NCBI GenBank assembly: GCA_964629235.1
Contig: CAZVQB010000002.1
Location: 4,339 to 68,338, forward strand
Source: an uncultured Candidatus Saccharibacteria bacterium
GTDB taxonomy: Bacteria > Patescibacteriota > Minisyncoccia > Phycocordibacterales > PALSA-1337
DNA length: 64,000 nucleotides
Reading direction: 5' to 3'
Part shown: positions 24,527-64,000 of the stretch, piece after piece
Layout: every line of letters begins with the position of its first letter
How positions within the stretch are numbered: position 1 is the stretch's first letter
The notes under the pieces: generated by a model
Told to the model about the DNA's origin: nothing
The model's input: the letters and a program-made list of their open reading frames with translations, nothing else
Database searches by the model: none
Translations under genes and position numbers: made by a program

Positions 24527-25195
24527 ATGAAAATCCTGATTATTGAAGATGATGTAGATATTTCCAGTTTTATAAAAGACAATCTAACTGAAAGTACTTA
24601 TTCCGTAGAAGTCGCAAAGGATGGACCTGATGGATCATTCTTAGCTAGAACAAACTTTTACGATGTCATAATTATGGATTATTCCCTACCATCAAAAGAT
24701 GGTGTTCTAGTATGTGAGGAGATACGTGCTTCTGGCGTCGAAACACCCATAATCTTTTTAACAGTTCATCAAGATATAAAGAAGAAAGTCAAAGCTTTAG
24801 AAAAAGGTGCGGATGACTATATGACCAAACCTTTTTCTATTGAAGAATTAAAAGCAAGAATAAAAGCTTTAGCGCGTAGGCCAAGAAAAATTGAAAGCCC
24901 AATTTTAATAGTAGATGATTTAATCCTAGATACACACAAAAGAACAGTAAAAAGAGGCGAAACGTCTATTTATCTAACGAGAAAAACATATGATCTATTG
25001 GAATACCTTATGAGGAATAAAGGTATTGTACTTTCAAGAGGTTCTATAATGGAATATGTATGGAATTCTGATAGTGACCCATTTTCAAATACTATAGAAG
25101 CACATATACTAAACCTGAGAAAGAAAATAAATGTGAAGGGTAAAAAGGATATACTAAAGAATATTCCAGGAAGAGGTTATATTATGGGGTCCTAA
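24527..25195 (+). CDS. OmpR-family two-component response regulator (receiver + winged-helix); no histidine kinase adjacent
   Basis: MKILIIEDD, the phospho-acceptor context VIIMDYSLP, MTKPF, and a C-terminal trans_reg_C-like wHTH (NTIEAHILNLRKKI). Confidence 0.85.
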   Translation: MKILIIEDDVDISSFIKDNLTESTYSVEVAKDGPDGSFLARTNFYDVIIMDYSLPSKDGVLVCEEIRASGVETPIIFLTVHQDIKKKVKALEKGADDYMTKPFSIEELKARIKALARRPRKIESPILIVDDLILDTHKRTVKRGETSIYLTRKTYDLLEYLMRNKGIVLSRGSIMEYVWNSDSDPFSNTIEAHILNLRKKINVKGKKDILKNIPGRGYIMGS

Positions 25196-27428
25196 ATTTA
25201 CCTTCTTGTATTTGCTTAATAGCGTCATCAACCTGAGATTTTATAAGCGGGAATCTTTCTTTTGCTTTTTTTAACAATTCAATAGCCTGATATTCTTGCT
25301 TATTTAATAGATAAGTATAAGCTAGAGATGAATACACTTCTTGATTATCTGGATCTTTTGCTAATATCTTTTTGTATATTTCGATAGCTTTATCATATTG
25401 TTTTGACAATACATAAGCGTTTATAACTCTTGGATCACTAAATACCTCGAGATCATCTCCAAAAATTTTCTTTGCTTTTGCTTCTTCACCTGCTGTTATT
25501 AGAGCTGTAACATAAGTAGTCTTGGCTATTGGATTATCTGTTGATGATTGATATGCTTTATCCAATATCTCAACCGCCTCCTTATTTTTACCAATATTTA
25601 AATAATTAACAGCAAGTTCAAATATTATACTTTGTTTATTTGGAGAAAGTTCATTTGCTTTTTCAAGTAATGGGGTGGCAGTATTGAAATCTCTAATAGC
25701 GTTATAATAACTTCCACCAATTATGTATATTCTAGCGTCTTTCGGTGTACTCTTTATTTGATTTTCGATTTCCTTTTTTGCCAAATCATAGAATGCTGCC
25801 TTTTTATCTTGTTGAATCTGTGGGTCTTGTATTACATTAGCAGAACAGTTCAACAATTGCTCAACAGCCTCTTGGTTTGCAACTGTTTGACCAAGTTTAA
25901 ATACTTTTTCAAACGGCACCACAGATACAGTTTGAGGATTTGAACAAGCAATTAGCGCTCCGATTAATCTTGTATTCGCTTGTATAGGTCGGACATTTAC
26001 AAAATACATTGATGCAACAAATAGAATCACTACAATAGGTACATACACATAATCTCTTATTGTTTCAGCATCTTCAGATATTGATTTGCTGTAATTTTCA
26101 AATATAGACAAATCCTTATTCTTTCTTAGTGAATGAACAAAAGCGAGTAATGTGAAGAACATTATATAACTTGTTTGATTGTCGAATACGAACACATTAT
26201 GTATTGCATATCCAACTAGTAGACCGATTAGTATTGACTTTTCTCCAATCGTCTTTTCACTCTTAATAATAAAAATTAGGGAGATTAAATATAGCGCAAG
26301 ATATGCAAGTAATCCTAATATTCCTCCAGCAACAAACCAGTCTAAGAAAACACTGTGTGCTCGATCAAACCACTGTTCATGCTTCCACATTTCTGGATTG
26401 TAGTGTGAATTGAATATGTAGTTAAAATTTTCTTGCCCAACTCCGATAATTGCTGTCTTTGGACTCTCAACAACCCCCTTTATTGCCATAGGCCAGATAA
26501 ATCTTCTTGCTTGGGTCTTTGTATCTGAAATTGATATTGAAGCCAATCTTCCTAGTACTTCATTCTTTTGAATCCAGTTGGCATTTCTATTGAAGTAGAA
26601 TAATACACCGACAACAATCACAAAGATAATAATTGAACCTGAAAATATTCTACTTTTATTTGATTGACCATTATTCTTTCTACCAAAAATTGTATAAATA
26701 GCACAAGAAACAATGATTGCAATTGTCCAACCTATAATAGTTCCTCGAGTTGCTGTCTGAAACATTATAAAAGAGAAAAATGCCGCAGCAATAGAGTATG
26801 AATAGAACAAATGTTTCTTTGCAAAATAACTTATTGCTAGGTATGCAGAAATAAAAGCATTGAACAACATATAAACAGCCATATATGCAGAGTTACCTAG
26901 TGATGCATCAACTCTTCCTCCTTGGTGTGTTTCTGCCCAACCAAAAAATTGTGTTAAACCATAAAGTGCTGTTATCAAACCTGAAATAATTACAACATTG
27001 AAAAATTTGTGCCAACTTTCTTTTGTTTTTAAGACCGAAGACAAAACCATGAAATAACCCCAAAGGTGGACTATCATGAGCCAACCTTCCATTCTCTCAA
27101 AGTTTGACCAGATACTTCTCAGTGGATTTAATCCAGCGAGATCAGCAATCAAAGCAATGAAAGCAAATATACCTATAGAAACAGAGATCGCATTACACTT
27201 TGGAAGAACACTTTTATCTGTTCCAACAATACTTGTACCTTTTTCTCTGAAGATAAGGATTAGCCACAGAGCAAAAACAATTTCAACAATTATTCTAAAA
27301 GCAAACCCTTTACCTGTTATAAATGGAAAAAATAAAGAATTAACAACGTAAGTTGGAATAAATGGAATTACTGCTAAACCGATAATAATTGCGTATTTAA
27401 TTAAAGTATTTATTGTTGAATTGTTCAT
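25182..27428 (-). CDS. O-antigen ligase-like (Wzy_C) polytopic membrane protein with C-terminal TPR repeats
   Basis: The 748-aa ORF has about 12 TM helices and a clear Wzy_C signature, FDRAHSVFLDWFVAGGILGLLAY (H-N/S-x-x-L...GIIG). The C-terminal ~280 aa are TPR-like repeats. Confidence 0.7.
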   Translation of the reverse strand: MNNSTINTLIKYAIIIGLAVIPFIPTYVVNSLFFPFITGKGFAFRIIVEIVFALWLILIFREKGTSIVGTDKSVLPKCNAISVSIGIFAFIALIADLAGLNPLRSIWSNFERMEGWLMIVHLWGYFMVLSSVLKTKESWHKFFNVVIISGLITALYGLTQFFGWAETHQGGRVDASLGNSAYMAVYMLFNAFISAYLAISYFAKKHLFYSYSIAAAFFSFIMFQTATRGTIIGWTIAIIVSCAIYTIFGRKNNGQSNKSRIFSGSIIIFVIVVGVLFYFNRNANWIQKNEVLGRLASISISDTKTQARRFIWPMAIKGVVESPKTAIIGVGQENFNYIFNSHYNPEMWKHEQWFDRAHSVFLDWFVAGGILGLLAYLALYLISLIFIIKSEKTIGEKSILIGLLVGYAIHNVFVFDNQTSYIMFFTLLAFVHSLRKNKDLSIFENYSKSISEDAETIRDYVYVPIVVILFVASMYFVNVRPIQANTRLIGALIACSNPQTVSVVPFEKVFKLGQTVANQEAVEQLLNCSANVIQDPQIQQDKKAAFYDLAKKEIENQIKSTPKDARIYIIGGSYYNAIRDFNTATPLLEKANELSPNKQSIIFELAVNYLNIGKNKEAVEILDKAYQSSTDNPIAKTTYVTALITAGEEAKAKKIFGDDLEVFSDPRVINAYVLSKQYDKAIEIYKKILAKDPDNQEVYSSLAYTYLLNKQEYQAIELLKKAKERFPLIKSQVDDAIKQIQEGKFRTP

Positions 27429-27463
27429 AATATGGAGATGATATCATATTATGAATATGTTAT

Positions 27464-28411
27464 CTATTGAAATTTCTTTAATTTATTGGCTATAAATATA
27501 TCAGTATCTCTTCTAGATTCATAAGTCATACCTCCAGTATGTGGAGCTATAATTACATTTGGATTTTTTCTTGCAAACTTTACTAGTGGATGATTCTTGC
27601 AACTATTTTTTGTAAATAAAATCTCACCATCAAGAACGTCAGCTGCATATCCAGCAATCTTTTTCTGTTTTATTACAGTCATCAAATCACCTTCATGAAC
27701 GATCTTACCTCTTGAAGTATTTATTAAATAAGCATTTTTTTTCATAAGACTCATAGTCTTTTTATTGAAAAGGAATTCTGTTTCTGGATTCAAATGTATG
27801 TGTATAGAAATAAAATCACTTTTCTTTAAAAGATCGTTAAAACCAACCTTTTTCCAATTTAGATTTGATGATTCGACTTTTGGATCAGTAAATATAACTT
27901 TCATACCCAAGGCTTCGCCGTATATAGCCATCCACCTTCCGAGTCTTCCAAGACCAACTATTCCTAAAGTTTGACCGTTCAATGAGTGTCCTTTGAACTT
28001 TTCTCTATTCCATTCCCCTTTTAAAACAGACTGGACTGAACTTGGAATATGCCTTGAAGAAGATATGAGTAATCCCAAAGCTAGTTCAGCGGTACCAGTA
28101 ATAGTATTTAAGAAATCATCTTCACCTTTTAGACTAAGAACTTTTACACCTTTTTCTTCAGCGTATTTTATATCAATATGATCCAATCCTGTAGTTGCTG
28201 TAACAAGAAATTTAAGATTTTTTGCTTTTGACAAAACTTCTTTATTAAAATTTAGTCCCAAACCACAGACCACTACATCGTATTTTTCTATTTTTTTTGA
28301 TAGTTCTTGATTTGTAGGTATAACATAATCAACCTTACCTAAAGTATTTAAGATTTTCTTTGCCTCCGGATCAAAATCCTTTCCGATTGTATTTAGTATT
28401 CTGTATGCCAT
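27464..28411 (-). CDS. D-isomer-specific 2-hydroxyacid dehydrogenase family, NAD-binding
   Basis: The 315-aa ORF has a GxGxxG Rossmann motif (GIVGLGRLGRWMA) and the catalytic-type motifs NTSRG and HTGG. Confidence 0.8.
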   Translation of the reverse strand: MAYRILNTIGKDFDPEAKKILNTLGKVDYVIPTNQELSKKIEKYDVVVCGLGLNFNKEVLSKAKNLKFLVTATTGLDHIDIKYAEEKGVKVLSLKGEDDFLNTITGTAELALGLLISSSRHIPSSVQSVLKGEWNREKFKGHSLNGQTLGIVGLGRLGRWMAIYGEALGMKVIFTDPKVESSNLNWKKVGFNDLLKKSDFISIHIHLNPETEFLFNKKTMSLMKKNAYLINTSRGKIVHEGDLMTVIKQKKIAGYAADVLDGEILFTKNSCKNHPLVKFARKNPNVIIAPHTGGMTYESRRDTDIFIANKLKKFQ

Positions 28412-28425: not shown

Positions 28426-30306
28426 CTAAAACTTAAATCCTTTTTTCTTTAATTCCTTCAGCATATATTCTGCTATAATCCAATCGAGTGGATAATCAAT
28501 ATCTACCGATCTATCCTTAGGTACAATATATCCTGCGACCTTATCTCCATAAAGCTTATTTTCTTTCATAATTAAATCCCTTCTCATAGAGTATATTGCT
28601 GCACTTCTCTTATACGCTACAGGCAGATCTTGTCTTCTTGTACCCTCTACTTCTGGAACTGAATATGCACTAATGAAATCTCCTTCGAGTTTTTTAATTT
28701 TAATTGGATTCACATTACTTGGAACTTCAACTATTGATACAGCACTATCTGCTTTTGTATCTATAAGTTTTTGAATTGTTCCATCGATATCATCTATAGT
28801 TCTAAATGGTGAAGTTGGTTGAAGTATAACTACATAATCGATAGTAATATTATTTTTCTTTTCATAAAAATCAATTGCATGTTGCATTACCGGAAGATGT
28901 GGAGTTCCATCTTGAGCCAATTCTTTTGGTCTCATAAAAGGTACATCTGCTCCGTACTTCTTACATACATCAGCAATTTCTTTGTCATCTGTTGAAACAA
29001 TAAGATGATTTATCAATTTGCTCTTCTTTGCAGCATCGATTGTATAAGCAATAAGAGGTTTATTGCCAAGTTTCTTTATATTCTTACCCGGAATGCCTTT
29101 TGATCCTCCGCGAGCGGTTATAACACCAAGGACATTTGGAGTTCTATATTCCCTATCAACATGTTCTTCTGTAAGTGGTTCGAATTTCTTAATATCTTTT
29201 ATTATTTTTTTATCCAAAATATCATGAAAAAAATTTGAAAAAATTCCATTTAGATGAAGTCTTGGTCTCATAGCATAGACCATATCACTGGTGATTATAG
29301 TTCCAGCTTTAATATCTCTTGATGCAACAAGTGTTTTATTGAAATAAGGTCTAAACTTATTTTGTGCACCTTCCAATTCTTTTTCCTTTTGACCATAGAA
29401 AATATTTGTATCTATTTTCTTATATTCATTTTTCTTAATACCAGAGACTAGTTGTTTCATTTCTTCTGGAGTAACTGAAGCTTTATGATCTGAACCCCAA
29501 AGACCTCGATCTAGAGAAAAATGTTTTTCTATAACCTGTGCACCCATTTTTACTGCAGCTAAAGGAATAGTATTGTCTCCAACTGAATGATCAGAAAAAC
29601 CAATGATTGCATGAGGATATTTTTCTTTAAAATATTCTATAGTAGAAAGATTAAATGCTTCTGGAGGACATGGATATTCACTAACGCAATATAGAATAAT
29701 AATTGGTGACCCACGCTTTGTAATATAGTTGACAACGTCATCCAATTCCTTGTGACTAACCATTCCTGTTGAAATGATTATTGGTTTTTGCGTTTTCGTT
29801 AAAAAATCCAAAAGAACATGATCCTGAACATCTCCAGAACCTACTTTCCAAAAAGGTACATCTAGATTTTCAAGTTTAACCGCTGCCATTCTAGACATCG
29901 GAGTTGAGAAGAATATAATTCCTTTTTTTTCTGAATATCTTTTTATTTCTTTGAAAAATTCTATAGGTGCTTCTTCTGTATTTCTTTTAACCCAAGAATA
30001 TCTATCACTACCTTTAAAGTGCGGAGAAACGACATTTATATTTGCTTGTTCATCTTCAACCTCATGAGTTTGAAACTTCACAGCATGTGCACCTGCTTTT
30101 ACTGCTTCATCAATAAGCTTTTTTGCATTCTTAATATAGACTTTTAGAGGTTGAGATTCTTGTGTTTGTATAAAATTCTTACCGATTTCAGCAATAACAA
30201 AAACTTTATCCTTTGATATGATTTTAGAGATAGCGTGAGGCTTCACTATTTTTGAATTTTTATTCTTGCCGGCTTTATAGGATTTAACAGGCTTTTTTAT
30301 TTTCAT
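28426..30306 (-). CDS. Bifunctional nonulosonic (sialic-acid-like) acid synthase NeuB domain fused to CMP-nonulosonate cytidylyltransferase NeuA domain
   Basis: The N-terminal ~360 aa match NeuB (VIAEIGKNF, TIM barrel, C-terminal SAF-like segment). The C-terminal ~230 aa match acylneuraminate cytidylyltransferase (VLGVITARGGSKGIPGKNIKKLGNKPLIAYTIDAA). Confidence 0.8.
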   Translation of the reverse strand: MKIKKPVKSYKAGKNKNSKIVKPHAISKIISKDKVFVIAEIGKNFIQTQESQPLKVYIKNAKKLIDEAVKAGAHAVKFQTHEVEDEQANINVVSPHFKGSDRYSWVKRNTEEAPIEFFKEIKRYSEKKGIIFFSTPMSRMAAVKLENLDVPFWKVGSGDVQDHVLLDFLTKTQKPIIISTGMVSHKELDDVVNYITKRGSPIIILYCVSEYPCPPEAFNLSTIEYFKEKYPHAIIGFSDHSVGDNTIPLAAVKMGAQVIEKHFSLDRGLWGSDHKASVTPEEMKQLVSGIKKNEYKKIDTNIFYGQKEKELEGAQNKFRPYFNKTLVASRDIKAGTIITSDMVYAMRPRLHLNGIFSNFFHDILDKKIIKDIKKFEPLTEEHVDREYRTPNVLGVITARGGSKGIPGKNIKKLGNKPLIAYTIDAAKKSKLINHLIVSTDDKEIADVCKKYGADVPFMRPKELAQDGTPHLPVMQHAIDFYEKKNNITIDYVVILQPTSPFRTIDDIDGTIQKLIDTKADSAVSIVEVPSNVNPIKIKKLEGDFISAYSVPEVEGTRRQDLPVAYKRSAAIYSMRRDLIMKENKLYGDKVAGYIVPKDRSVDIDYPLDWIIAEYMLKELKKKGFKF

Positions 30307-30457
30307 ATGTTATATCCTATGTTATTTGGTGATTTTATTCAATATTAAATAGCTAATATTGACAAATATATATATTAATGATAAGGTTTTAAAAAATTTT
30401 GTTCTTTTATATATGATTAAAGAAAATTGGAGGAAGTGGGCTGTACTCGAAGGTCTG

Positions 30458-33531: not shown

Positions 33532-33532
33532 T

Positions 33533-57179: not shown

Positions 57180-57659
57180 TTAAGACGCAGGACAAGCATA
57201 AGTTGAAGCGGCAAGAGCTGTTGTAACTTGTCTTGAAGCTCCTGTACTATCTACACACCAAGCTACTATTGCTCCAGACGCTGAAGCCTTAAGTGGAACG
57301 ATTGCTGCCCAAGCTGTTGATGAATCGTGGCATTGTGATGTGTTATATGTTGAAGCAGTACCATCAGCTAAAGTTGGTGCAGCAACTCCATAAGCAGCAT
57401 TCGCAGCAATAACACTATCACCAATAACATTTGCTCCTGTTAGTGCACATACACCATCGTATGATGATGTTCCATTATCATAGAACAATTCAGCCTCTGC
57501 TCTAGCGCCAGATAGGTTTGACTTTACAGCAGTATCAGCTCCCTTTGAACGTGCTGTGTTTAGTGAAGCCAAAACAACTGATGACAATATACCGATAATA
57601 GCGATAACTACAAGCAACTCAATCAATGTAAAACCTTTTTGCAAATATGATTTCTTCAT
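57180..57659 (-). CDS. pilA: Type IV pilin (prepilin, class III signal peptide)
   Basis: MKKSYLQKG/FTLIELLVVIAIIGIL, the prepilin peptidase site G/F with Glu+5. The C-terminal domain has two Cys pairs and is Ser/Thr/Ala-rich. Confidence 0.85.
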   Translation of the reverse strand: MKKSYLQKGFTLIELLVVIAIIGILSSVVLASLNTARSKGADTAVKSNLSGARAEAELFYDNGTSSYDGVCALTGANVIGDSVIAANAAYGVAAPTLADGTASTYNTSQCHDSSTAWAAIVPLKASASGAIVAWCVDSTGASRQVTTALAASTYACPAS

Positions 57660-57766: not shown

Positions 57767-58975
57767 TTATTGCGAACTAGCCACGTTGTAAATAGGTATA
57801 AGGACTGAAGCGAGCAAAGTAGCAACACCAAGTCCAAGTAGAACGATCATAGCTGGTTCTATAAGATCTACTAGAGCATCAACAGCAGTTACAACTTCTC
57901 TTGAATAAAATTTAGCCAAAGTTTTAAGTATTGCTCCAAGTTCTCCTGATTCTTCACCAACTCTCATCATTTGAATCATAATTCCAGGAATTTCTCCATT
58001 ACCAGATAGAGCTTCTGACACTGTCTTTCCTGCTTTTACTGAATCTACCGCATCAGAGATTATTTTTTTATATATACTATTGTTAATAACTGAAGAAGTA
58101 AGCTCCAATGATCTAATCATAGGAATTCCAGACATAAGCATAGTATTCATATTGTCAGAAAGTCTAGCCCAGTATAGTTTTCTAAAAAGATTACTTAAAT
58201 AAGGGATATTGAGCTTAAATTGATCGAAGACAATTGCTCCACTAGGTGTTCTTACATATTTTACAACTATAAACCCTACGATCATGACAACAGCGAGCAT
58301 AATAAAACCATTTGCAACCATAAAATTACTAATTCCCAAAACTATTTTTGTATAAATTGGTATATCCTGACCAGACTCAGTCAAAATTGCACTAATCTTT
58401 GGTATAACCATAGTAAACATGAGTATCATCACAGTTATAAAAGTCATCATAACGAAAGCTGGATATATAAGTGCGCTCTTTGCTTTTGATACAAGTTCAT
58501 ATGTTCTATCTAGATAATCAGCTAGATATGCAAAAGTTTCATTGAGTTTACCAGATTCTTCACCTGCTTTTACCATACTCACGTAAAACTCTGAAAATAC
58601 CTTTGGATGCTTTTCAAGTGCACCAGATATCTGACTTCCTGCTTGTAGATCATCAGCTATTTGAATCAATTTTGCACCCAAAACTTTATTTTCACTTTCT
58701 GCACCTAAAAGTCTAAATATTCTCAAAGCAGAAACTTGTGCTTCAAAAAGTGTTGCCAACTGCCTTGAAAGAATAACTATATCTTTGTTTGAAACCCTAT
58801 CAAGAAAAGATAGATTCATTGAAAGTAATCCTGTCTTTTTATCTGCTTCGTTTATAGAAGTAATCACCAAACCTCTTCTCTGTAGAGATGCAATAGCGAT
58901 ATCAACATTTGCAGCATCTATAGAGCCTTTTTGTGGTGTTCCAGCTTGATCTACTGATTGATAATTAAAAAGCAT
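57767..58975 (-). CDS. pilC: Type IV pilus platform protein PilC (GspF family)
   Basis: The 402-aa ORF has two T2SSF repeats and 3 TM helices. Confidence 0.85.
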   Translation of the reverse strand: MLFNYQSVDQAGTPQKGSIDAANVDIAIASLQRRGLVITSINEADKKTGLLSMNLSFLDRVSNKDIVILSRQLATLFEAQVSALRIFRLLGAESENKVLGAKLIQIADDLQAGSQISGALEKHPKVFSEFYVSMVKAGEESGKLNETFAYLADYLDRTYELVSKAKSALIYPAFVMMTFITVMILMFTMVIPKISAILTESGQDIPIYTKIVLGISNFMVANGFIMLAVVMIVGFIVVKYVRTPSGAIVFDQFKLNIPYLSNLFRKLYWARLSDNMNTMLMSGIPMIRSLELTSSVINNSIYKKIISDAVDSVKAGKTVSEALSGNGEIPGIMIQMMRVGEESGELGAILKTLAKFYSREVVTAVDALVDLIEPAMIVLLGLGVATLLASVLIPIYNVASSQ

Positions 58976-58985
58976 TGTAAAAATA

Positions 58986-60044
58986 TTATATCATTCTTTC
59001 TAAATTTTTTGGATTAACTGAATTTATATATGCATTCTCAGGACTAATCTCTCCTCTTCTTACGAGTTCGGCTAGTGAACGATTCATATCAATCATACCT
59101 TCTGCAGAACTTGTCTCTATAACAGTATTTATTTCATGTATTCTTTTTTCTCGAATAAGATTTGCTACAGCGGAATTGTTTATCAAAAGTTCATATGCAG
59201 GTATTAGACCGCCTGATATTCTAGGAATCAATCTTTGAGAGAAAATACCAGTCATACTTCCAGCAAGTTGTACTCTTATCTGATCCTGTTGCGAAGCTGG
59301 GAAAGAGTCGATGATACGGTTAATTGTCTGTGATGCTGTATTTGTATGTAGAGTTGAGAATACCAAGTGACCTGTTTCAGCTGCTGTTACTGCTGTAGAT
59401 ATAGTCTCTGGATCTCTCATTTCACCTACCAAAGCAACATCTATATCCTCTCGAAACATCGCAATCAAAGCATTCTTGAAGTCTGGTGTATCTATTCTAA
59501 CCTCTCTTTGATCAATAATGGATTTCTTCGATTCATAAATATACTCGATAGGATCTTCGATTGTCATGATATGTTCATTTCTAGTTTGATTTATTATTTC
59601 AATCAAAGAAGCCAAAGTCGTACTCTTTCCTTGCCCAATCGGACCTACACATAAAAAGAATCCTTGTTGTTTTCTAGTAAAAGATTCAAGGATAGGTGGG
59701 AGATTCAACTCTGTAAGAGTTTTGATTTGTTTTGGAATAAGTCTAAGTGCAATAGATATAAGTCCTTGCCTGTAGTATGCATTTCCACGAAATCTTGCAT
59801 TTGTTAGACTGTAAGAAAAGTCTACATCTTTATCTTTAGCAAAGAGTTCTTTATTTTCATCAGAAAGAAAAGTATTTATATAACCTTTCATATCTGCTGC
59901 TGTAATGACAGATTTCTTAGCTAGAGGTATAAGACTTCCAGAGACTCGAATAAGCGGATTTCTACCTTCAGAAAGATGAAGGTCTGATGCGCCTTCATTT
60001 ATCACTGTTGTAACAAGTTCTTCTATATCTCTTTTATAATCCAT
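58986..60044 (-). CDS. pilT: Type IV pilus retraction ATPase PilT
   Basis: Walker A GPIGQGKST, DPIEY, the Asp box, and AIRNLIRE-like ANLIREKRIHEI. Confidence 0.9.
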   Translation of the reverse strand: MDYKRDIEELVTTVINEGASDLHLSEGRNPLIRVSGSLIPLAKKSVITAADMKGYINTFLSDENKELFAKDKDVDFSYSLTNARFRGNAYYRQGLISIALRLIPKQIKTLTELNLPPILESFTRKQQGFFLCVGPIGQGKSTTLASLIEIINQTRNEHIMTIEDPIEYIYESKKSIIDQREVRIDTPDFKNALIAMFREDIDVALVGEMRDPETISTAVTAAETGHLVFSTLHTNTASQTINRIIDSFPASQQDQIRVQLAGSMTGIFSQRLIPRISGGLIPAYELLINNSAVANLIREKRIHEINTVIETSSAEGMIDMNRSLAELVRRGEISPENAYINSVNPKNLERMI

Positions 60045-60064
60045 ATGATTTAATTATGAAAAAA

Positions 60065-60451
60065 CTATTTTTTAATATGTGAACAAATCTTCTCTACCTC
60101 AGACATAACTTCAGAAGGAATTGTTGTTGCTTTTATTATATAACCATCTACATTCAAAGCTTTAGCTCTAGCGATATCATCAGGAAGGCCTTGATTTGTT
60201 AACATAATTATAACTGATTTTTTTACCAAACCCTCTTTTCTTAAATTTGAAAGTAATTCGATACCATCCATTCCTGGCATTACAATATCTAAAAGTAAAA
60301 TATCTGGTTCCAATCCATCTCTAATCAACTTCAATGCCTCTTCCGTATCTGCTGATGTATGAACTATAAAATCATTCTTTGAAAATTTCAGAGAATACAT
60401 ATCTAACAGAAACTTATCATCATCTACAAAAAGTATTGAGCGTGGTTTCAT
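60065..60451 (-). CDS. CheY-like single-domain response regulator embedded in the pilus operon
   Basis: FVDDD, ILLLDIVMPGMDG, and the T/K positions (MLTNQ, IIKA). Confidence 0.85.
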   Translation of the reverse strand: MKPRSILFVDDDKFLLDMYSLKFSKNDFIVHTSADTEEALKLIRDGLEPDILLLDIVMPGMDGIELLSNLRKEGLVKKSVIIMLTNQGLPDDIARAKALNVDGYIIKATTIPSEVMSEVEKICSHIKK

Positions 60452-60473
60452 GTATATATTATATCATAATAAA

Positions 60474-62189
60474 TTAGAGCTTATTCACTTCTTCAAATGG
60501 TATTTTCTTTTCAAATGCCTTTAGCATTGCATCTTCCTTCATAGTAATCATACCTTTTTGCCTTAACAATCTACTTATTTCTAATTCAGTAGGACTCTTC
60601 AGAATCACATTTTCTATTTCTTTATCCATTTTGAATATTTCAAATATCGCCATACGTCCTCTAGTACCCTTTGGACAGTCTGGAGTCGGCTCTATTCCAT
60701 ATACTGTATCTGAAAAAGGTATTTCTTTTTTGAATTGTTCTGGTAAATCAGAAAATTGTTTATCAATCATCATTTTTATACTTCCATCTACCGGTATTGG
60801 TTTTCCTGCTCCAGGTGGGAATGTAGAAACAAGTCTTTGAGCAATAGCTAGAATAAGGGTAGGGGCAATAAGATACGGATCTACTCCCATGTCTATAAGA
60901 CGCGGAATAACACCAGCAGAGTTGTTGGTGTGTAGAGTTGAGAATACCAAGTGACCAGTAAGCGCAGCTTGCACAGCAAGCTGCGCAGTCTCTTTGTCTC
61001 GGATCTCACCCACCATGATTATATCTGGATCTTGTCTAAGTGTTGTTCTAAGTCCAGATGCGAAAGTATAACCAATCTCGGGATGAACTTGTGATTGACT
61101 CACACCATCCATATTGTATTCAATCGGATCTTCAAGAGAAAGAACATTCATAGTCTCTCGATCGACTTCATTTAACATAGAATATAGAGTTGTTGATTTT
61201 CCGGAACCTGTTGGACCAGTAATGAGAATAAGTCCGTATGGCCTTGTAATTGCATCTTTTATCAAAGCGAGATTCTTTGGTGTTAAACTCATATCATCAA
61301 TCTTTTTTACTCCTTTTTCTTGATCAAGGATACGCATCACAACTTTTTCTCCATAATATGCTGGGAATGTTGAAACTCGGAAGTCGATTTTTCTTCCATC
61401 TATACGAGCAGAGAATCTACCGTCTTGTGGTTTTCTCTTTTCATCAAGTTTCATATTACACAAAACCTTAATACGAGCCACAACCGCATTGTGTACTTGA
61501 GGTGGAAGAACCAAACTTGTGTTTAAAGTACCATCCACACGGAATCTAACACGAACTTTATCTCTCATATGTTCTATATGAACGTCAGAGGCATTGCCCT
61601 CTGTAGCATATCGGACGATAGTAGCCACAATCTTTATAACAGGAGCATCTTCTATGATAACTGCATCATTTTTCTTTTCAGTTTTACTTTGGGCAATATC
61701 AATAGTTGCTGCTTTATCTACAGATAGTACAGATTCTAGTTCAGTAAGAGCCTTTGACACTTCTCCACCGATACCTTTGTATGAATCGATTACCTTTTGA
61801 AAATCATCAATAGTAATCAAAAAAACTTTATAAGGAATATTTTTTTTAGAAGCAATAAAATTCAAAGCGTCTCTAGCTTCAATATTGTCCGGATCGACAA
61901 TTCCAACTTCTAGAGTGCTATCGTGTAACCCAATTGGTACGAATTTATAATGTTTTGCTGATTCTTCAGGAATATAATCTAGTGCTTCAAAAGGCACAAG
62001 AGTATCACCTAGGGCTTTTACTGGAATATTCAGGAATTCACCCCTTGCTGTAAGAATATCTTCAGGTCTGATGCCTTTTTCAATTAGTATTTTATCCAAA
62101 GCCTCACCTTTTGCAGCGATTTTCTTTATTTCTGCAACATCATCTTTGGTTATAAGATTTTTATTTAGTAAAATATCAACTATACTCAT
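60474..62189 (-). CDS. pilB: Type IV pilus assembly ATPase PilB (GspE family) with N-terminal GSPII_E_N domain
   Basis: Walker A GPTGSGKST, PIEY, the Asp box and His box (TGHLVFSTLHTN). Confidence 0.9.
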   Translation of the reverse strand: MSIVDILLNKNLITKDDVAEIKKIAAKGEALDKILIEKGIRPEDILTARGEFLNIPVKALGDTLVPFEALDYIPEESAKHYKFVPIGLHDSTLEVGIVDPDNIEARDALNFIASKKNIPYKVFLITIDDFQKVIDSYKGIGGEVSKALTELESVLSVDKAATIDIAQSKTEKKNDAVIIEDAPVIKIVATIVRYATEGNASDVHIEHMRDKVRVRFRVDGTLNTSLVLPPQVHNAVVARIKVLCNMKLDEKRKPQDGRFSARIDGRKIDFRVSTFPAYYGEKVVMRILDQEKGVKKIDDMSLTPKNLALIKDAITRPYGLILITGPTGSGKSTTLYSMLNEVDRETMNVLSLEDPIEYNMDGVSQSQVHPEIGYTFASGLRTTLRQDPDIIMVGEIRDKETAQLAVQAALTGHLVFSTLHTNNSAGVIPRLIDMGVDPYLIAPTLILAIAQRLVSTFPPGAGKPIPVDGSIKMMIDKQFSDLPEQFKKEIPFSDTVYGIEPTPDCPKGTRGRMAIFEIFKMDKEIENVILKSPTELEISRLLRQKGMITMKEDAMLKAFEKKIPFEEVNKL

Positions 62190-62194
62190 AAATT

Positions 62195-62563
62195 TTAATT
62201 CGATGAACCTTTAGGTAGCTTTATCGAGGTAGACGATGGAACTGAAGCACCTCCAGTTGGTGCAAACGGGTTTGGTCGACCGACATTCTGTTCTGGAATA
62301 GTTATCGTATAATCAACCAAAGAATTATATACTGGAGATTTAAAAATCTCACCATCAATCTTAAGTGAACTTATCGTGTTTAACAGTATCAATACCCTAC
62401 TAGCAGCGGCTTGAGCACCAACTGATGCAACGGTACTAGTAGTAGTCAATGAAGAACCAGTGTCAGTTGGTGTTCCTTTATAATAAAAATAAATTCCAAG
62501 TGACACTACTACTATTAGTATCAAAGCGATGAATGTTCCTTTTGATGGTGATTGTTGTTGCAT
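62195..62563 (-). CDS. Small single-TM protein in the pilus operon (PilP-like position; function unknown)
   Basis: The 122-aa ORF has an N-terminal TM helix and a Ser/Thr-rich region. Confidence 0.3.
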   Translation of the reverse strand: MQQQSPSKGTFIALILIVVVSLGIYFYYKGTPTDTGSSLTTTSTVASVGAQAAASRVLILLNTISSLKIDGEIFKSPVYNSLVDYTITIPEQNVGRPNPFAPTGGASVPSSTSIKLPKGSSN

Positions 62564-62567
62564 AATA

Positions 62568-63173
62568 TTATTGTTTTAACCAAAATGTTTTAACTTCTAC
62601 ATTGTAATCATATACACCAGTGTCGTTTGATTTTACTGTAATTTTTGAAATCTCAATAATTCTTAGACTTGCCTCTATATCTTTTAGGAAGTTTAGGAAA
62701 TTTTGATAATTACTTGATACATCAAAACTAAGAGTAACCGTACTATATGTGCTTTGTGTAGAACCATCACCAGAAACTTGATCAATACCAGGATTAGCAA
62801 CTGGTTCGGACGCATCCTTTGGAGTAGTAGTCTTTACATTTTTCATTACAATACCGTGTCTTGCTGCAACTCCACTTATATCTATTATAAGACGAACATT
62901 ATCGACATTATCTGGTAGAATTTTTTCTAATCTCTCTTGGTCATCTATGCCGATTTTATTGTAATTATCTTTTACAGCATCTCTAACCTTTATCAATTTT
63001 TCAGAATTTTCAAGTGCTTGTTCATACTGAGCATTTACTTGTCTTATAGCTTGTAATTCATCAATTTTCGCACGAGTAAAGGTAAAGTATATTCCAACCG
63101 CCAAGACTATTAGTATTAATGGTGTAACATTCTTATTCATATTATTGTGTTGGATTATTTGGCGCCGAATCAC
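62568..63173 (-). CDS. pilO: PilO-like pilus assembly protein (TM + coiled coil); true start probably the internal ATG (MNKNVTPL)
   Basis: Topology and coiled-coil segment match PilO. The position between pilN-like and pilB fits. Confidence 0.45.
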   Translation of the reverse strand: MIRRQIIQHNNMNKNVTPLILIVLAVGIYFTFTRAKIDELQAIRQVNAQYEQALENSEKLIKVRDAVKDNYNKIGIDDQERLEKILPDNVDNVRLIIDISGVAARHGIVMKNVKTTTPKDASEPVANPGIDQVSGDGSTQSTYSTVTLSFDVSSNYQNFLNFLKDIEASLRIIEISKITVKSNDTGVYDYNVEVKTFWLKQ

Positions 63174-63783
63174 CAGTTAATATTTTCTCATAATAAATGT
63201 CACTTGTATCAAAGCTTGCTGTCAAAGTAAAACCGACATTTCCTTTATCATCAAGTACCAAATCACCCAAAACTGGATTTTTTACAACCTTATTTTTTCC
63301 ATATTTTATCGATTGACCCAAAACATCTGATTGCCAAGCAATTGAACTAAAACTATTACCCGTTCCCTTCACAGTGATACGAGCTGAATCTCCAGAAACA
63401 ACAGGCGAAGTGAATTCAAAATTATCAAAACGTATTCCTTCAGTCGTAAGATTATTTATAATGTCAAAAACCTCAGAAACAGCTATATGATTTTTTAGAA
63501 GTTGATTTGCTAAATCAATTTTTGTATTGGCTTTCTTTAATTTTTCGATTAAAGCAATATCAAATCTTTTTTCTGCTTTTTCCAATTCAACTTGATAAGA
63601 AGCTTGTTGTTTAGTTAGTACATCTTTCCAAAAAAAAGTAAAACCCGCACCAGCTAGTGATAATATAAAAATCATAACAGATATAAACATAAAGACACTA
63701 GCACCTCCACTATGCTTTATTGTTTTCTGATCCATCAAAATTGGTTTTTTGGGAATGAACGATGTTTGGAATTTAGTGTCCAT
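63142..63783 (-). CDS. pilN: PilN-like pilus assembly protein (TM + coiled coil)
   Basis: The 213-aa ORF has an N-terminal TM and a coiled coil. It lies directly downstream of a pilM-like fragment. Confidence 0.45.
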   Translation of the reverse strand: MDTKFQTSFIPKKPILMDQKTIKHSGGASVFMFISVMIFILSLAGAGFTFFWKDVLTKQQASYQVELEKAEKRFDIALIEKLKKANTKIDLANQLLKNHIAVSEVFDIINNLTTEGIRFDNFEFTSPVVSGDSARITVKGTGNSFSSIAWQSDVLGQSIKYGKNKVVKNPVLGDLVLDDKGNVGFTLTASFDTSDIYYEKILTGDSAPNNPTQ

Positions 63784-63801
63784 TAATATAATTATAGTTG
63801 A

Positions 63802-64000
63802 TTACTCTATTTCAGACAATCGACGTAATGCACACCCGATTGCAACTGCGAACTCAGGTCCAGCCTTTAGGAATTGTTCACTCAAGAATGCCGGAGTTTC
63901 CAATTTTCCAAATGGATTTGCATAAACAATTTCAGTCTGGAAACTTATTTTTGCCAAATCAGTAAAACCACGAAGCAATACTCCACCTCCAGTAAGTACA
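63802..64000 (-). CDS. pilM: PilM-like actin-fold pilus assembly ATPase, C-terminal 65 aa (partial; the gene continues beyond the window end)
   Basis: The reverse-strand translation reads LTGGGVLLRGFTDLAKISFQTEIVYANPFGKLETPAFLSEQFLKAGPEFAVAIGCALRRLSEIE followed by a stop. The LTGGG...L.G motif and the C-terminus resemble PilM/FtsA-family ends. Confidence 0.6.
   Translation of the reverse strand, partial: VLTGGGVLLRGFTDLAKISFQTEIVYANPFGKLETPAFLSEQFLKAGPEFAVAIGCALRRLSEIE

What the first reader, a model, noticed from the sequence alone, without database searches (positions are those of the whole stretch)
25182..64000. A ~26-kb surface-glycan island lies next to a complete type IV pilus operon, suggesting a possible pilin or surface-protein glycosylation system
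From 25.2 to 53.7 kb nearly every gene belongs to glycan synthesis. These include nonulosonic acid synthesis (neuC, neuB-neuA), a Wzx flippase, a GT9, three TagF-like transferases, four methyltransferases, GT2/GT4 enzymes and a polyprenyl-P-sugar set (GT2 + GtrA + two GT-C enzymes). The island also includes a Wzy_C/TPR protein. It abuts the operon pilM-N-O-B-(CheY)-T-C-pilA without a break. In Neisseria (PglL) and P. aeruginosa (TfpO/PilO), pilins are O-glycosylated by Wzy_C-domain oligosaccharyltransferases using lipid-linked glycans. In Campylobacter and others, filament proteins are decorated with nonulosonic acids. That these components sit together in one locus of a small AT-rich (likely CPR-type) genome hints at a dedicated pilus/surface glycosylation system built around a sialic-acid-like sugar. 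I am not aware of such a system being described in this kind of organism.
Basis: partly seen in the sequence, partly recalled or inferred. Interest (0 to 1): 0.75.

Follow-up and report, generated by a model that had tools for sequence, protein, structure and literature searches.

The report
Variable surface-sugar island beside pilus genes
An ultrasmall Paceibacteria-type bacterium carries a swappable 28-kb sugar-coat gene island, here making a sialic-acid-like sugar, wedged between a conserved glycan-ligase gene and its pilus genes; a previously unnoticed membrane glycosyltransferase gene sits directly after the pilin gene, but whether any of these sugars end up on the pilus is not shown.

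Summary
The gene content is real. Positions 25182-53679 (28.5 kb, not ~26) hold 25 ORFs, 24 with glycan-synthesis signatures. These include a NeuC plus NeuB-NeuA set, three TagF-like paralogues resembling the Tannerella nonulosonic-acid transferase, four methyltransferases, a Wzx, GT2, GT4 and GT9 enzymes, GtrA and a Wzy_C-TPR protein.

Three details are wrong:
- The island does not abut pilA. A VirD4-like ATPase, a 521-aa membrane protein and a terminator-like hairpin lie between them.
- pilM is cut by the window end.
- The window has no PilD or minor pilins.

Related genomes keep the flanks (Wzy_C-TPR on one side, the pilus operon on the other) but swap the island content, much like an O-antigen locus. 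The Wzy_C-TPR family occurs in at least 572 species. Pilin genes lie near it in only 2 of 80 loci. In one related genome it is about 313 kb from the pilus operon.

Verdict: this is a hypervariable surface-glycan locus. Pilin glycosylation is plausible, most directly through the GT-C, but unproven.

The parts
23110..25195 (.). Conserved left flank: VTT+PAP2 membrane protein (23110-24396, -) and OmpR-type response regulator (24527-25195, +)
   Evidence: Pfam. The same two genes follow the Wzy_C-TPR ortholog in L012, L013, L014-L023, L034-L036 and L076.
25182..27428 (-). Wzy_C-TPR protein (748 aa): candidate glycan ligase or O-oligosaccharyltransferase with 13 membrane helices and a C-terminal TPR domain predicted to lie outside the cell
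   Evidence: Pfam Wzy_C 61 bits plus TPR. AF2 pLDDT 81.5, 13 TM helices then TPR 504-741. More than 3800 homologues and at least 572 species. An ortholog lies next to Wzm/Wzt in L013.
27464..28411 (-). D-2-hydroxyacid dehydrogenase (PGDH-like); part of the nonulosonic-acid cassette
   Evidence: Pfam, NCBIfam. Travels with NeuBA/NeuC in L017, L024, L026 and L036.
28426..30306 (-). Fused nonulosonic acid synthase (NeuB+SAF) and CMP-nonulosonate synthetase (NeuA-like)
   Evidence: Pfam NeuB 223 bits, CTP_transf_3 98 bits. TIGR03569 251 bits, below cut-off. Best PDB matches are N. meningitidis NeuB and CMP-Neu5Ac synthetases.
30359..31348 (+). EamA-family transporter inside the cassette
   Evidence: Pfam. 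Also present in L036.
31387..32544 (-). Hydrolysing UDP-GlcNAc 2-epimerase (NeuC/LegG type)
   Evidence: TIGR03568 346.5 bits against a cut-off of 235.9. Pfam Epimerase_2.
32548..37163 (-). Methyltransferase, TagF-like 1, TagF-like 2, methyltransferase (32548-33531, 33533-34891, 34888-36216, 36216-37163)
   Evidence: Pfam Methyltransf_23 and Glyphos_transf at 41 and 32 bits. NF046086 BFO_1060 family at 52 and 44 bits, below cut-off.
37225..38619 (-). TagF-like 3: best candidate nonulosonic-acid transferase. It is the only one of the three paralogues with an 'HP' dipeptide in the aligned VRxxP segment
   Evidence: NF046086 85 bits and TIGR04396 47 bits. About 25% identical to the other two. BFO_1060 is an ortholog of the T. 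forsythia Pse/Leg transferase (PMC5420450).
38620..41112 (.). GT9 glycosyltransferase (38620-39738, +) and Wzx-type flippase (39724-41112, -)
   Evidence: Pfam, NCBIfam.
41172..44222 (+). Two polytopic membrane proteins, probably GT-C glycosyltransferases (41172-42560 and 42564-44222)
   Evidence: 10-13 predicted TM helices; acidic first-loop motifs DAEAYDE and YNDEPP. PMT_2 22.8 bits, below cut-off, for the second. No profile similarity to the 521-aa GT-C. Assignment is inferred.
44222..45349 (.). Polyprenyl-phosphate-sugar synthase GT2 (44222-44986, +) and GtrA (44918-45349, -)
   Evidence: Pfam. Best NCBIfam matches PpgS, PgfS, AglJ and ArnC. Its orthologs (54-67% identity) lie convergent to the 521-aa GT-C in L005, L007, L010 and L011.
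45346..50422 (.). TylF methyltransferase, Methyltransf_11, GT2 (AglJ-like), GT4, GFO/IDH/MocA oxidoreductase and FAD oxidoreductase
   Evidence: Pfam, NCBIfam.
50419..53679 (-). Three GT4-type genes forming the conserved pilus-proximal module
   Evidence: Pfam. 58-79% identical in L005 and L007, 91-94% in L009.
53684..55507 (-). Soluble VirD4/TraG/HerA-like ATPase at the island-pilus junction; role unknown
   Evidence: Pfam, NCBIfam, PADLOC mad8/HerA weak. Present at the junction in L005, L007, L009 and L112; absent from L003, L004, L096 and L113, which lack the island.
55560..57125 (-). 521-aa GT-C-fold glycosyltransferase directly after pilA: candidate pilin glycosyltransferase (true start probably Met6 at 57110)
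57119..57159 (-). Terminator-like hairpin (19-bp stem, T-run) after pilA
57180..57659 (-). Major prepilin PilA (159 aa), ending in ...YACPAS
   Evidence: Pfam N_methyl, TIGR02532, sequence, alignment.
57767..64000 (-). Pilus machinery: pilC, pilT, cheY-like, pilB, a 122-aa gene, pilO, a pilN-like gene, and the 3' end of pilM (cut by the window end)
   Evidence: Pfam. PilM C-terminus translated. Same order in L003-L009, L094, L096, L112 and L113.

Best explanation
This is the hypervariable surface-glycan locus of a Paceibacteria-type (Patescibacteria) bacterium, organised like an O-antigen or S-layer-glycan locus. A replaceable set of sugar-synthesis genes sits between conserved flanks. One flank is a Wzy_C-TPR enzyme plus response regulator and VTT/PAP2. 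The other is three GT4 genes, a VirD4-like ATPase, a GT-C gene, pilA and the pilus operon.

Two routes are encoded.

Route 1 (inferred). NeuC, NeuB and NeuA convert UDP-GlcNAc to a CMP-activated nonulosonic acid of Neu5Ac or legionaminic type. Cytoplasmic GT4, GT2 and GT9 enzymes and the three TagF-like/BFO_1060-like transferases build a methylated oligosaccharide on a polyprenyl carrier. Wzx flips it. The conserved Wzy_C-TPR enzyme, acting as a ligase rather than a polymerase, transfers it en bloc to an acceptor outside the membrane. That acceptor is most likely one or more surface proteins, possibly including pilin. Its identity is unknown.

Route 2 (better supported). GT2 (44222-44986) makes a polyprenyl-phosphate monosaccharide. 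GtrA helps translocate it. GT-C enzymes transfer single sugars outside the cell. The GT-C encoded directly after pilA is the most likely pilin-specific glycosyltransferase. It would work like P. aeruginosa TfpW, streptococcal PgfS/PgfM or PMT enzymes.

Shown here: family and fold assignments, synteny, GT2-GT-C partnership.
Inferred: every substrate, every acceptor, and any pilin modification.
For: - Domain assignments.
- Flank conservation with content turnover. Window, L009+L036 (33-kb island), L005+L013 (31 kb, with Wzm/Wzt, GT11 and no neu genes seen) and L007+L012 (25 kb, with SIS, Ribul_P_3_epim and Hydrolase_3). Island GC is 0.28-0.31 against 0.31-0.35 in the 8 kb on either side and 0.31-0.37 across the rest of the window.
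- Ligase rather than polymerase. The Wzy_C-TPR orthologs stay 58-64% identical while the glycan genes change. In L013 the ortholog is next to an ABC (Wzm/Wzt) exporter, a pathway that needs no Wzy polymerase.
- The nonulosonic-acid cassette recurs directly next to Wzy_C-TPR in L017, L024, L026, L036 and L110.
- GT2 partnership. The cognate GT2 is convergent to the GT-C in L005, L007, L010 and L011, and is the ortholog of window GT2 44222-44986. Family members are fused to GT2 or GtrA.
- L020 has Wzx, Wzy_C-TPR, three pilins, PilD and two more pilins in a row.
- Precedent for a GT-C directly after pilA: TfpW (bioRxiv 10.1101/2020.04.19.049825).
Against: - There is no biochemical or proteomic evidence of any kind.
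- Conserved adjacency among related genomes can be inherited synteny without functional meaning.
- The pilus operon and Wzy_C-TPR are about 313 kb apart in CAYWKB01. L003, L004 and L096 have pilA and the GT-C without any island.
- In L010/L011 the GT-C is next to ruvA, not pilA.
- More distant GT-C relatives (34% identity or less) sit in ordinary glycan clusters. The family therefore need not act on proteins.
- No initiating phosphoglycosyltransferase is in the window.
- NeuB and NeuA score below the NCBIfam equivalog cut-offs, so the exact sugar is unresolved.
- A terminator-like hairpin separates pilA from the GT-C.
Confidence: 0.6

Rival explanations
1. The Wzy_C-TPR protein is a PglL/TfpO-type O-oligosaccharyltransferase dedicated to the pilus. 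It transfers the nonulosonic-acid-containing lipid-linked oligosaccharide made by the island onto PilA.
For: - Wzy_C domain plus a TPR domain predicted outside the cell.
- The island lies between this gene and pilA in at least four lineages.
- L020 and L044 have pilin genes directly after the Wzy_C-TPR gene.
- The pilin ends in Cys-Pro-Ala-Ser. This resembles the C-terminal Ser acceptor of TfpO in P. aeruginosa 1244 (from memory).
- Ortholog conservation across different glycans fits a relaxed-specificity transferase.
Against: - No PglL_A or Wzy_C_2 domain, even at E<=10.
- The gene is 30 kb from pilA.
- The family occurs in at least 572 species. 78 of 80 loci have no pilin within 10 kb and none has pilB, pilT or pilC within 10 kb.
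- It is about 313 kb from the pilus operon in CAYWKB01.
- The C-terminal Ser is present only in the window and its closest relative.
Confidence: 0.2
2. There is no pilus involvement. The island makes a general envelope glycan (S-layer glycan, capsule-like or wall-linked polymer). The GT-C enzymes decorate that glycan or other proteins. The position next to the pilus operon is an inherited or hot-spot arrangement, as with O-antigen loci that sit beside unrelated genes.
For: - The Wzy_C-TPR family is near-universal in this group and usually has no pilus genes nearby.
- The two loci are unlinked in CAYWKB01.
- The region after pilA also collects unrelated accessory genes: a PemK toxin in L005 and DUF3800 in L112, with a reverse transcriptase upstream of pilM in L112.
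- Remote GT-C relatives lie in plain glycan clusters.
Against: - The GT-C follows the pilin gene in about 11 of 12 lineages, including genomes with no island.
- In L020 the Wzy_C-TPR end of the island abuts the minor-pilin/PilD block.
- About 8 of 12 Wzy_C-TPR contigs of 50-140 kb appear also to carry the pilus operon, judged by matching contig lengths. Only three of these were verified directly; a fourth is the window's own contig.
Confidence: 0.3
3. The Wzy_C-TPR protein is a Wzy-type polymerase that polymerises island-encoded repeat units into a long surface polysaccharide.
For: Wzy_C is shared by polymerases and ligases. A Wzx flippase is present.
Against: - Polymerases co-vary with the repeat unit. 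Here the protein is conserved (58-64% identity) across islands with different content.
- Its ortholog sits next to a Wzm/Wzt ABC exporter in L013, a route that does not use Wzy.
Confidence: 0.08
4. The pilus-proximal module (VirD4/HerA-like ATPase plus GT4 genes with 'GT4-conflict' hits) is a defence or mobile-element module rather than surface-glycan machinery.
For: - PADLOC mad8 54 bits and HerA weak.
- Pfam GT4-conflict 32.6 bits for the GT4 at 52489-53679.
- TraD and CD1115 hits.
Against: - No GT4 matched any PADLOC model.
- No integrase, no tRNA and no flanking repeats.
- Identity of the module to relatives (58-79%) matches that of neighbouring core genes, consistent with vertical inheritance.
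- The GT4 genes hit ordinary glycan GT4 families far more strongly.
Confidence: 0.05

Closest known systems
P. aeruginosa TfpW (group IV pilin D-arabinofuranosyl transferase)
   Same: A GT-C membrane glycosyltransferase encoded immediately downstream of the major pilin gene. It depends on a polyprenyl-phosphate sugar and a GtrA-like protein and has an acidic motif in the first external loop (for TfpW; here).
   Different: The window protein is shorter (521 against 646 aa) and has no C-terminal TPR domain. The sugar is unknown. Sequence relatedness to TfpW was not tested. The host is a monoderm-like Patescibacterium. Pilin modification is not shown.
Neisseria PglL and P. aeruginosa/Acinetobacter TfpO (PilO) O-oligosaccharyltransferases
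   Same: A Wzy_C-domain polytopic enzyme with a large external C-terminal region, encoded beside lipid-linked glycan genes and a Wzx. It is conserved while the glycan genes vary, which fits relaxed glycan specificity.
   Different: It has no PglL_A or Wzy_C_2 domain, a TPR domain instead, is not adjacent to pilA, and belongs to a family of at least 572 species mostly without pilus linkage.
S-layer O-oligosaccharyltransferases of Firmicutes (WsaB of Geobacillus stearothermophilus, WsfB of Paenibacillus alvei; from my own knowledge)
   Same: Wzy_C enzymes in single-membrane bacteria that ligate ABC- or Wzx-exported lipid-linked glycans to a surface protein. They are encoded at the edge of a variable glycan cluster, as with Wzm/Wzt next to the ortholog in L013.
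   Different: No S-layer gene was identified here, and these proteins were not compared directly with the window protein.
Streptococcal Pgf system (PgfS GT2 plus PgfM GT-C) and Gtr-type three-component systems (GtrA/GtrB/GtrX; ArnC/ArnT)
   Same: A GT2 polyprenyl-P-sugar synthase, a GtrA and a GT-C transferase. The window GT2 hits PgfS, PpgS, AglJ and ArnC. Fusions of this GT-C family with GT2 or GtrA exist. Pgf glycosylates surface proteins (PMC12041528, PMC5856776; abstracts seen).
   Different: The GT-C part matches no curated Pfam family. The acceptor is unknown.
Tannerella forsythia general O-glycosylation with terminal Pse/Leg (transferase Tanf_01245 / BFO_1060)
   Same: A nonulosonic-acid pathway plus BFO_1060-like transferases that would add the sugar to a lipid-linked oligosaccharide destined for surface proteins.
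   Different: The window proteins score far below the family cut-off (44-85 against 200 bits). The pathway here is NeuC-type (Neu/Leg), not Pse. There are three paralogues interleaved with methyltransferases.
O-antigen, capsule and S-layer-glycan loci with conserved flanks and variable content
   Same: Low-GC, content-swapping island between conserved flanking genes.
   Different: One flank here is the type IV pilus operon, and the organism has no LPS.

Membership tests
Nonulosonic acid synthase (NeuB/LegI/PseI) | Pfam NeuB plus SAF domains above threshold | tested here: met
   NeuB 223 bits (cut-off 22), SAF 31 bits.
N-acetylneuraminate synthase equivalog (TIGR03569) | Score above the curated equivalog cut-off | tested here: not met
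   250.8 against 399.65 bits. PseI 214 against 340. The sugar type is therefore unresolved.
Hydrolysing UDP-GlcNAc 2-epimerase (NeuC/NnaA, TIGR03568) | Score above the curated cut-off | tested here: met
   346.5 against 235.9 bits.
Pseudaminic acid pathway | PseB/PseC/PseH/PseG-type genes (dehydratase, aminotransferase, acetyltransferase, UDP-sugar hydrolase) | tested here: not met
   None among the Pfam hits of any scanned ORF in the window. They could lie elsewhere in the genome.
Wzy_C superfamily (O-antigen ligase, polymerase, O-OTase) | Pfam Wzy_C above threshold in a polytopic membrane protein | tested here: met
   61.4 against 31.7 bits; 13 TM helices.
PglL-type O-oligosaccharyltransferase | PglL_A accessory domain | tested here: not met
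   No hit, even at E<=10.
PglL-type O-oligosaccharyltransferase | Demonstrated transfer of lipid-linked glycan to protein Ser/Thr | not testable with these tools
   Needs reconstitution or glycoproteomics.
TfpO/PilO pilin glycosylase | Gene immediately downstream of pilA | tested here: not met
   The Wzy_C-TPR gene is about 30 kb from pilA. The gene after pilA is a GT-C.
TfpO/PilO pilin glycosylase | Wzy_C_2 accessory domain | tested here: not met
   No Wzy_C_2 hit, even at E<=10.
TfpO/PilO pilin glycosylase | C-terminal Ser acceptor on the pilin | tested here: inconclusive
   The window and L009 pilins end in CPAS. L003, L004, L005 and L007 do not end in Ser.
TfpW-like pilin GT-C glycosyltransferase | GT-C fold | tested here: met
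TfpW-like pilin GT-C glycosyltransferase | Encoded immediately downstream of the major pilin gene | tested here: met
   Window plus L003, L004, L005, L007, L009, L094-L097, L106 and L107. Exception: L010/L011.
TfpW-like pilin GT-C glycosyltransferase | Acidic DDX-type motif in the first external loop | tested here: inconclusive
   Invariant D46 and E48 ('TDAES') after TM1. The motif is not identical, and the topology comes only from the model.
TfpW-like pilin GT-C glycosyltransferase | C-terminal periplasmic TPR domain | tested here: not met
   There is no TPR. Residues 430-520 form a small alpha/beta domain.
TfpW-like pilin GT-C glycosyltransferase | Sequence homology to TfpW | not tested
TfpW-like pilin GT-C glycosyltransferase | Loss of pilin glycosylation on deletion | not testable with these tools
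   Needs genetics or reconstitution in a heterologous host.
Gtr-type three-component system (GT2, GtrA, GT-C) | Polyprenyl-P-sugar synthase GT2 and GtrA genetically coupled to the GT-C | tested here: met
   Convergent GT2 partner in L005, L007, L010 and L011, orthologous to window 44222-44986. GT2- and GtrA-fused family members. Window GT2 hits PpgS, PgfS, AglJ and ArnC.
TagF-like CDP-glycerol glycerophosphotransferase (Pfam Glyphos_transf) | Score above the gathering threshold | tested here: inconclusive
   41 and 31.7 bits (cut-off 22.1) for two genes, matching only the C-terminal part of the profile. 16 bits for the third. No CDP-glycerol synthesis gene is in the island.
BFO_1060 family nonulosonic-acid transferases (NF046086) | Score above the curated cut-off | tested here: not met
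   85, 52 and 44 bits against 200.
BFO_1060 family nonulosonic-acid transferases (NF046086) | HP motif | tested here: inconclusive
   An HP dipeptide is present only in the protein at 37225-38619, in the aligned VRxxP segment. I did not align to the Tannerella proteins, so equivalence to the published HP motif is not shown.
BFO_1060 family nonulosonic-acid transferases (NF046086) | Co-occurrence with nonulosonic-acid synthesis genes | tested here: met
   The three paralogues travel with NeuBA and NeuC in L017, L024 and L036.
Type IVa pilus gene cluster | PilM, N, O, B, T, C, a prepilin, PilD and minor pilins | tested here: inconclusive
   PilO, PilB, PilT, PilC and a prepilin are present. PilN-like is assigned by position only. 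PilM is cut by the window end. PilD and minor pilins are absent from the window.

The most novel reading that the evidence does not exclude
In a clade of Paceibacteria, a hypervariable, O-antigen-like glycan island is embedded in the type IV pilus supercluster, between pilA plus the GT-C and the minor-pilin/PilD block. Its products would be put onto the pilus by two enzymes. The conserved Wzy_C-TPR O-oligosaccharyltransferase would add strain-specific oligosaccharides, here capped with a methylated sialic-acid-like sugar. The pilA-linked GT-C of an uncurated family would add single sugars. This would give these episymbionts glycan 'serotypes' on the organelle thought to mediate host contact, with consequences for host range and phage evasion.
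Probability: 0.2. Interest if true: 0.8.

Novelty: new variant of a known kind. Interest (0 to 1): 0.55.

Why it matters
Cultivated Patescibacteria live attached to other microbes, and in Saccharibacteria type IV pili drive that attachment (PMC12206443). Almost nothing is known about what decorates their surface. This locus points to three testable things:
- A conserved Wzy_C-TPR enzyme, found in at least 572 species, that probably ligates variable glycans.
- Repeated acquisition of nonulosonic-acid cassettes by these reduced genomes. I found no literature on this.
- A GT-C glycosyltransferase tied to the pilin gene.

If pili or other surface proteins carry strain-variable glycans, that would bear on host specificity, phage resistance and the interpretation of cryo-EM densities on CPR pili. 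If not, the locus is still a clean example of O-antigen-style locus architecture in a bacterium without LPS.

Tried and rejected
1. C-terminal Ser of the pilin as a TfpO-type signature. It is present only in the window and its nearest relative, so I dropped it as evidence.
2. Foldseek with the whole Wzy_C-TPR model. The hits were dominated by TPR proteins and said nothing about the membrane domain.
3. Profile comparison of the 521-aa GT-C family with the two other putative GT-C proteins and with the 814-aa TPR membrane protein. No relationship was found (probability below 1%).
4. PDB sequence searches for two of the TagF-like proteins. Nothing was found.
5. Search for att-like repeats, tRNA genes or integrases around the island. 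None were found, so there is no sign of a recent mobile insertion.
6. PADLOC scan of the pilus-proximal module. Only weak HerA/mad8 hits appeared for the ATPase, so I rejected the defence-system reading.
7. The afdb50 fold library was unavailable.
8. Distance between pilB and Wzy_C-TPR on the 256,750-bp contig. The look-up returned another contig instead.
9. Literature searches for CPR or Parcubacteria plus O-antigen ligase or nonulosonic acid returned nothing relevant.

Full report
**1. What is in the sequence**

ORF listing and Pfam/NCBIfam scans confirm a dense block of glycan genes from 25182 to 53679. It spans 28.5 kb and 25 ORFs.

In window order the block holds:
- a 748-aa Wzy_C protein with a C-terminal TPR domain;
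- a D-2-hydroxyacid dehydrogenase;
- a fused NeuB+SAF/CTP_transf_3 protein;
- an EamA transporter;
- a NeuC-type hydrolysing 2-epimerase (TIGR03568, 346 bits against a cut-off of 236);
- a methyltransferase, two Glyphos_transf (TagF-like) proteins and another methyltransferase;
- a third paralogue that fails Pfam (E=0.006) but hits NCBIfam NF046086 and TIGR04396;
- GT9 and Wzx;
- two polytopic membrane proteins, a GT2 and GtrA;
- TylF- and Methyltransf_11-type methyltransferases;
- a second GT2, a GT4, a GFO/IDH/MocA oxidoreductase and an FAD oxidoreductase;
- three more GT4-type genes.

GC is 0.28-0.31 in the island. It is 0.31-0.35 in the 8 kb on either side and 0.31-0.37 across the rest of the window. 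Homologues come from Patescibacteria/Paceibacteria MAGs such as Nomurabacteria and Taylorbacteria.

**2. Corrections to the observation**

The island does not run straight into the pilus operon. After the last GT4 come:
- a soluble VirD4/TraG/HerA-like ATPase (53684-55507);
- a 521-aa membrane protein with no Pfam hit (55560-57125);
- a 19-bp-stem terminator-like hairpin (57159-57119);
- only then pilA (57180-57659).

The hairpin overlaps the first ATG of the 521-aa ORF, so Met6 is the likelier start. pilM runs off the window end; its C-terminus is visible. No prepilin peptidase or minor pilin genes are in the window. The pilus cluster is therefore not complete here.

**3. The overlooked gene after pilA is a GT-C glycosyltransferase**

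The word-based search found only 18 homologues. An alignment-based AF2 model (pLDDT 79, pTM 0.84) matches only GT-C enzymes at the top of both structure searches:
- Foldseek: STT3/PglB, DPY19, AftA and ArnT, probability 1.0.

The family has invariant Asp46 and Glu48 just after the first membrane helix.

A profile search of 1.84 billion representatives finds 1738 clusters. Longer members carry N-terminal GT2, GtrA or GT4 domains. These fusions tie the family to polyprenyl-phosphate-sugar chemistry.

In L005, L007, L010 and L011 a ~245-aa GT2 lies convergent to the GT-C. That GT2 is the ortholog (54-67% identity) of window GT2 44222-44986. The window GT2's best NCBIfam matches are PpgS, PgfS, AglJ and ArnC. 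In the window this GT2 has moved 11 kb into the island, next to GtrA and the two other putative GT-C proteins.

**4. Synteny of the GT-C**

Among orthologs of at least 41% identity, a pilin gene lies immediately upstream in the window, L003, L004, L005/L006, L007, L009, L094, L095, L096, L097 and L106/L107.

The exception is L010/L011, where the GT-C and GT2 pair sits next to ruvA. Relatives at 34% identity or less lie in ordinary GT4/GT2/methyltransferase clusters without pilins.

L003, L004 and L096 have pilA and the GT-C followed directly by minor pilins and PilD, with no glycan island. The pilA-GT-C pairing is therefore independent of the island. The closest precedent is P. aeruginosa TfpW: a GT-C encoded right after pilA that arabinosylates pilin and needs a GtrA-like protein.

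**5. Synteny of the island**

Three further lineages carry both island flanks on one contig:

| Lineage | Identity to window | Island size | Content seen |
|---|---|---|---|
| L009+L036 | GT-C 83%, Wzy_C-TPR 92% | ~33 kb | same nonulosonic-acid cassette |
| L005+L013 | Wzy_C-TPR 64% | ~31 kb | Wzm/Wzt ABC exporter, GT11; no neu genes seen |
| L007+L012 | Wzy_C-TPR 62% | ~25 kb | Wzx, SIS, Ribul_P_3_epim, Hydrolase_3 |

Conserved on the left are enolase, VTT/PAP2, a response regulator and Wzy_C-TPR. Conserved on the right are three GT4 genes, the VirD4-like ATPase, (GT2), the GT-C, pilA and the pilus operon. The middle is replaced. This is the architecture of an O-antigen or S-layer-glycan locus.

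L112 shows the same pilus, VirD4-like and GT4 junction in a genome without the GT-C.

Matching contig lengths between the PilB and Wzy_C-TPR hit lists suggests that about 8 of 12 Wzy_C-TPR contigs of 50-140 kb also carry the pilus operon. Only three of these were verified directly; a fourth is the window's own contig.

**6. Limits of the linkage**

The Wzy_C-TPR protein belongs to a strongly conserved ~750-aa family with many invariant residues. It has more than 3800 hits and at least 572 GTDB species.

Among the 80 best loci:
- none has pilB, pilT or pilC within 10 kb;
- only two have pilin genes nearby.

Those two are L020 and L044. L020 reads Wzx, Wzy_C-TPR, three pilins, PilD, two pilins, an unassigned 177-aa ORF and LigA. 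That is the same minor-pilin block that follows the GT-C in L003 and L004. L044 has one pilin-like ORF 3 bp downstream.

On the 523-kb contig CAYWKB010000001.1 the pilus operon lies at about 88-90 kb and is followed by housekeeping genes. The Wzy_C-TPR gene, still with its response regulator, VTT/PAP2 and enolase flank, lies at about 403-406 kb. The two are about 313 kb apart.

In L110 (50% identity) the neighbours are another NeuB, methyltransferases and a PglK-like ABC transporter on one side, and MurB and SecA on the other.

The adjacency is thus clade-restricted and breakable, and could be inherited rather than selected.

**7. What the Wzy_C-TPR protein most likely does**

Its conservation across islands of different content, and its position next to a Wzm/Wzt exporter in L013, argue for a ligase or oligosaccharyltransferase rather than a Wzy polymerase.

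The AF2 model (pLDDT 81.5) has 13 membrane helices followed by TPR 504-741. With a WaaL-like topology the thirteenth helix places the TPR domain outside the cell. This is an inference.

The protein has no PglL_A or Wzy_C_2 domain. These bacteria lack LPS, so the acceptor is probably one or more surface proteins, possibly pilin, or some other envelope component. The sequence does not decide which.

**8. The sugar**

NeuC, NeuB and NeuA form a three-step pathway from UDP-GlcNAc.
- NeuC passes its equivalog cut-off. NeuB (251 against 400 bits) and the NeuA part (best match PseF, 176 against 206 bits) do not.
- The best solved relatives are N. meningitidis NeuB and CMP-Neu5Ac synthetases.
- No Pse-type or Leg-type dehydratase, aminotransferase or acetyltransferase genes occur in the window.

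A Neu5Ac-type product is the simplest reading. A legionaminic type remains possible if those genes lie elsewhere in the genome.

The three TagF-like paralogues are about 25% identical to each other. They hit the BFO_1060 family well below its cut-off. BFO_1060 is the ortholog of the T. forsythia Pse/Leg transferase Tanf_01245 (PMC5420450).

They travel with NeuBA, NeuC, the two methyltransferases and the 2-hydroxyacid dehydrogenase as one cassette, always next to Wzy_C-TPR, in L017, L024, L026 (partial) and L036. They are therefore better read as candidate nonulosonic-acid transferases than as teichoic-acid polymerases. This too is an inference.

**9. Mechanistic constraint and precedent**

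The globular part of a prepilin is exported. Any nonulosonic acid on pilin would therefore have to arrive by en bloc transfer from a flipped lipid-linked glycan. That is the Wzy_C route, as with the pseudaminic-acid trisaccharide on P. aeruginosa 1244 pilin (my own knowledge, not checked here). The GT-C route can add only polyprenyl-P-linked single sugars.

**10. Verdict**

The gene content is real and well above chance. The best-supported description is a hypervariable surface-glycan locus with a nonulosonic-acid allele, bounded by a conserved Wzy_C-TPR ligase-type gene and the pilus operon.

Pilin glycosylation is plausible, and the most direct candidate is the GT-C after pilA.

No paper in the searchable library describes nonulosonic acids, Wzy_C-TPR enzymes or pilin-linked GT-C genes in Patescibacteria. 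The Saccharibacteria pilus study only predicts pilin O-glycosylation in silico (PMC12206443).

Noticed in passing
window 548-2992 (-): A second large membrane-plus-TPR protein (814 aa, about 15 predicted TM helices, C-terminal TPR). The membrane part has no Pfam hit even at E<=10. It shows only a faint BLASTP resemblance (E=0.12, 20% over 257 aa) to the N-terminus of the Wzy_C-TPR protein. It may be a divergent paralogue or another glycan-handling enzyme.
   Followed up: partly
window 53684-55507 (-); L005 13577-15487; L007 2764-4563; L009 10466-12340; L112 16413-18182: A soluble VirD4/TraG/HerA-like ATPase always marks the junction between the pilus operon and the glycan island. It is present in 5 of 5 lineages that have the island and absent in 4 of 4 examined without it. 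It lies 4 bp upstream of the first GT4. It has weak hits to TraD, CD1115, CedD (a DNA-import ATPase) and PADLOC mad8. Its role is unexplained.
   Followed up: partly
P0259-P0406; P0271, P0331, P0356, P0339, P0342, P0288, P0332: The GT-C family of the 521-aa protein has at least 1738 clusters at 50% identity but no Pfam model. Natural fusions with GT2, GtrA and GT4 domains exist. It looks like an uncurated GT-C family.
   Followed up: partly
L020 8582-19330: In one species (contig CAZLCD010000003.1) the Wzy_C-TPR gene is flanked by Wzx and GT4 on one side. On the other side lie three pilin genes, PilD, two more pilin genes, an unassigned 177-aa ORF and LigA. That is the same block that follows the pilA-linked GT-C in L003 and L004. 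This hints that the island may once have lain inside the pilus supercluster. The far side of that island could not be fetched.
   Followed up: partly
L017, L024, L026, L036, L039, L065, L091, L110: Nonulosonic-acid synthase genes recur next to Wzy_C-TPR orthologs in several Paceibacteria species. In L110 this is a separate NeuB with methyltransferases, an ATP-grasp protein and a PglK-like ABC transporter. This suggests such sugars are a common theme of the glycan these enzymes handle.
   Followed up: partly
window 27464-28411 (-): A PGDH-like D-2-hydroxyacid dehydrogenase is a fixed member of the nonulosonic-acid cassette (also in L017, L024, L026 and L036). It could supply a hydroxyacyl (glyceroyl or lactyl) substituent, as on the Tannerella sugar. 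This was not tested.
   Followed up: no
L005 12395-13404; L112 2228-3298 and 15623-16228: Accessory genes accumulate around the pilus operon in relatives: a PemK toxin in L005 and a DUF3800 protein in L112 just downstream of pilA, and a reverse transcriptase upstream of pilM in L112. This suggests the region around the operon is a hot spot for accessory genes.
   Followed up: no
window 25182-53679: No initiating phosphoglycosyltransferase (Bac_transf or MraY/WecA type) and no obvious Wzy polymerase are encoded in the island or elsewhere in the window.
   Followed up: partly
record titles: Many of the GTDB MAGs carrying close relatives are titled 'uncultured Candidatus Saccharibacteria', while others with equally similar genes are titled Paceibacteria, Nomurabacteria or Taylorbacteria. 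The Saccharibacteria label on those assemblies may be a generic or wrong assignment.
   Followed up: no
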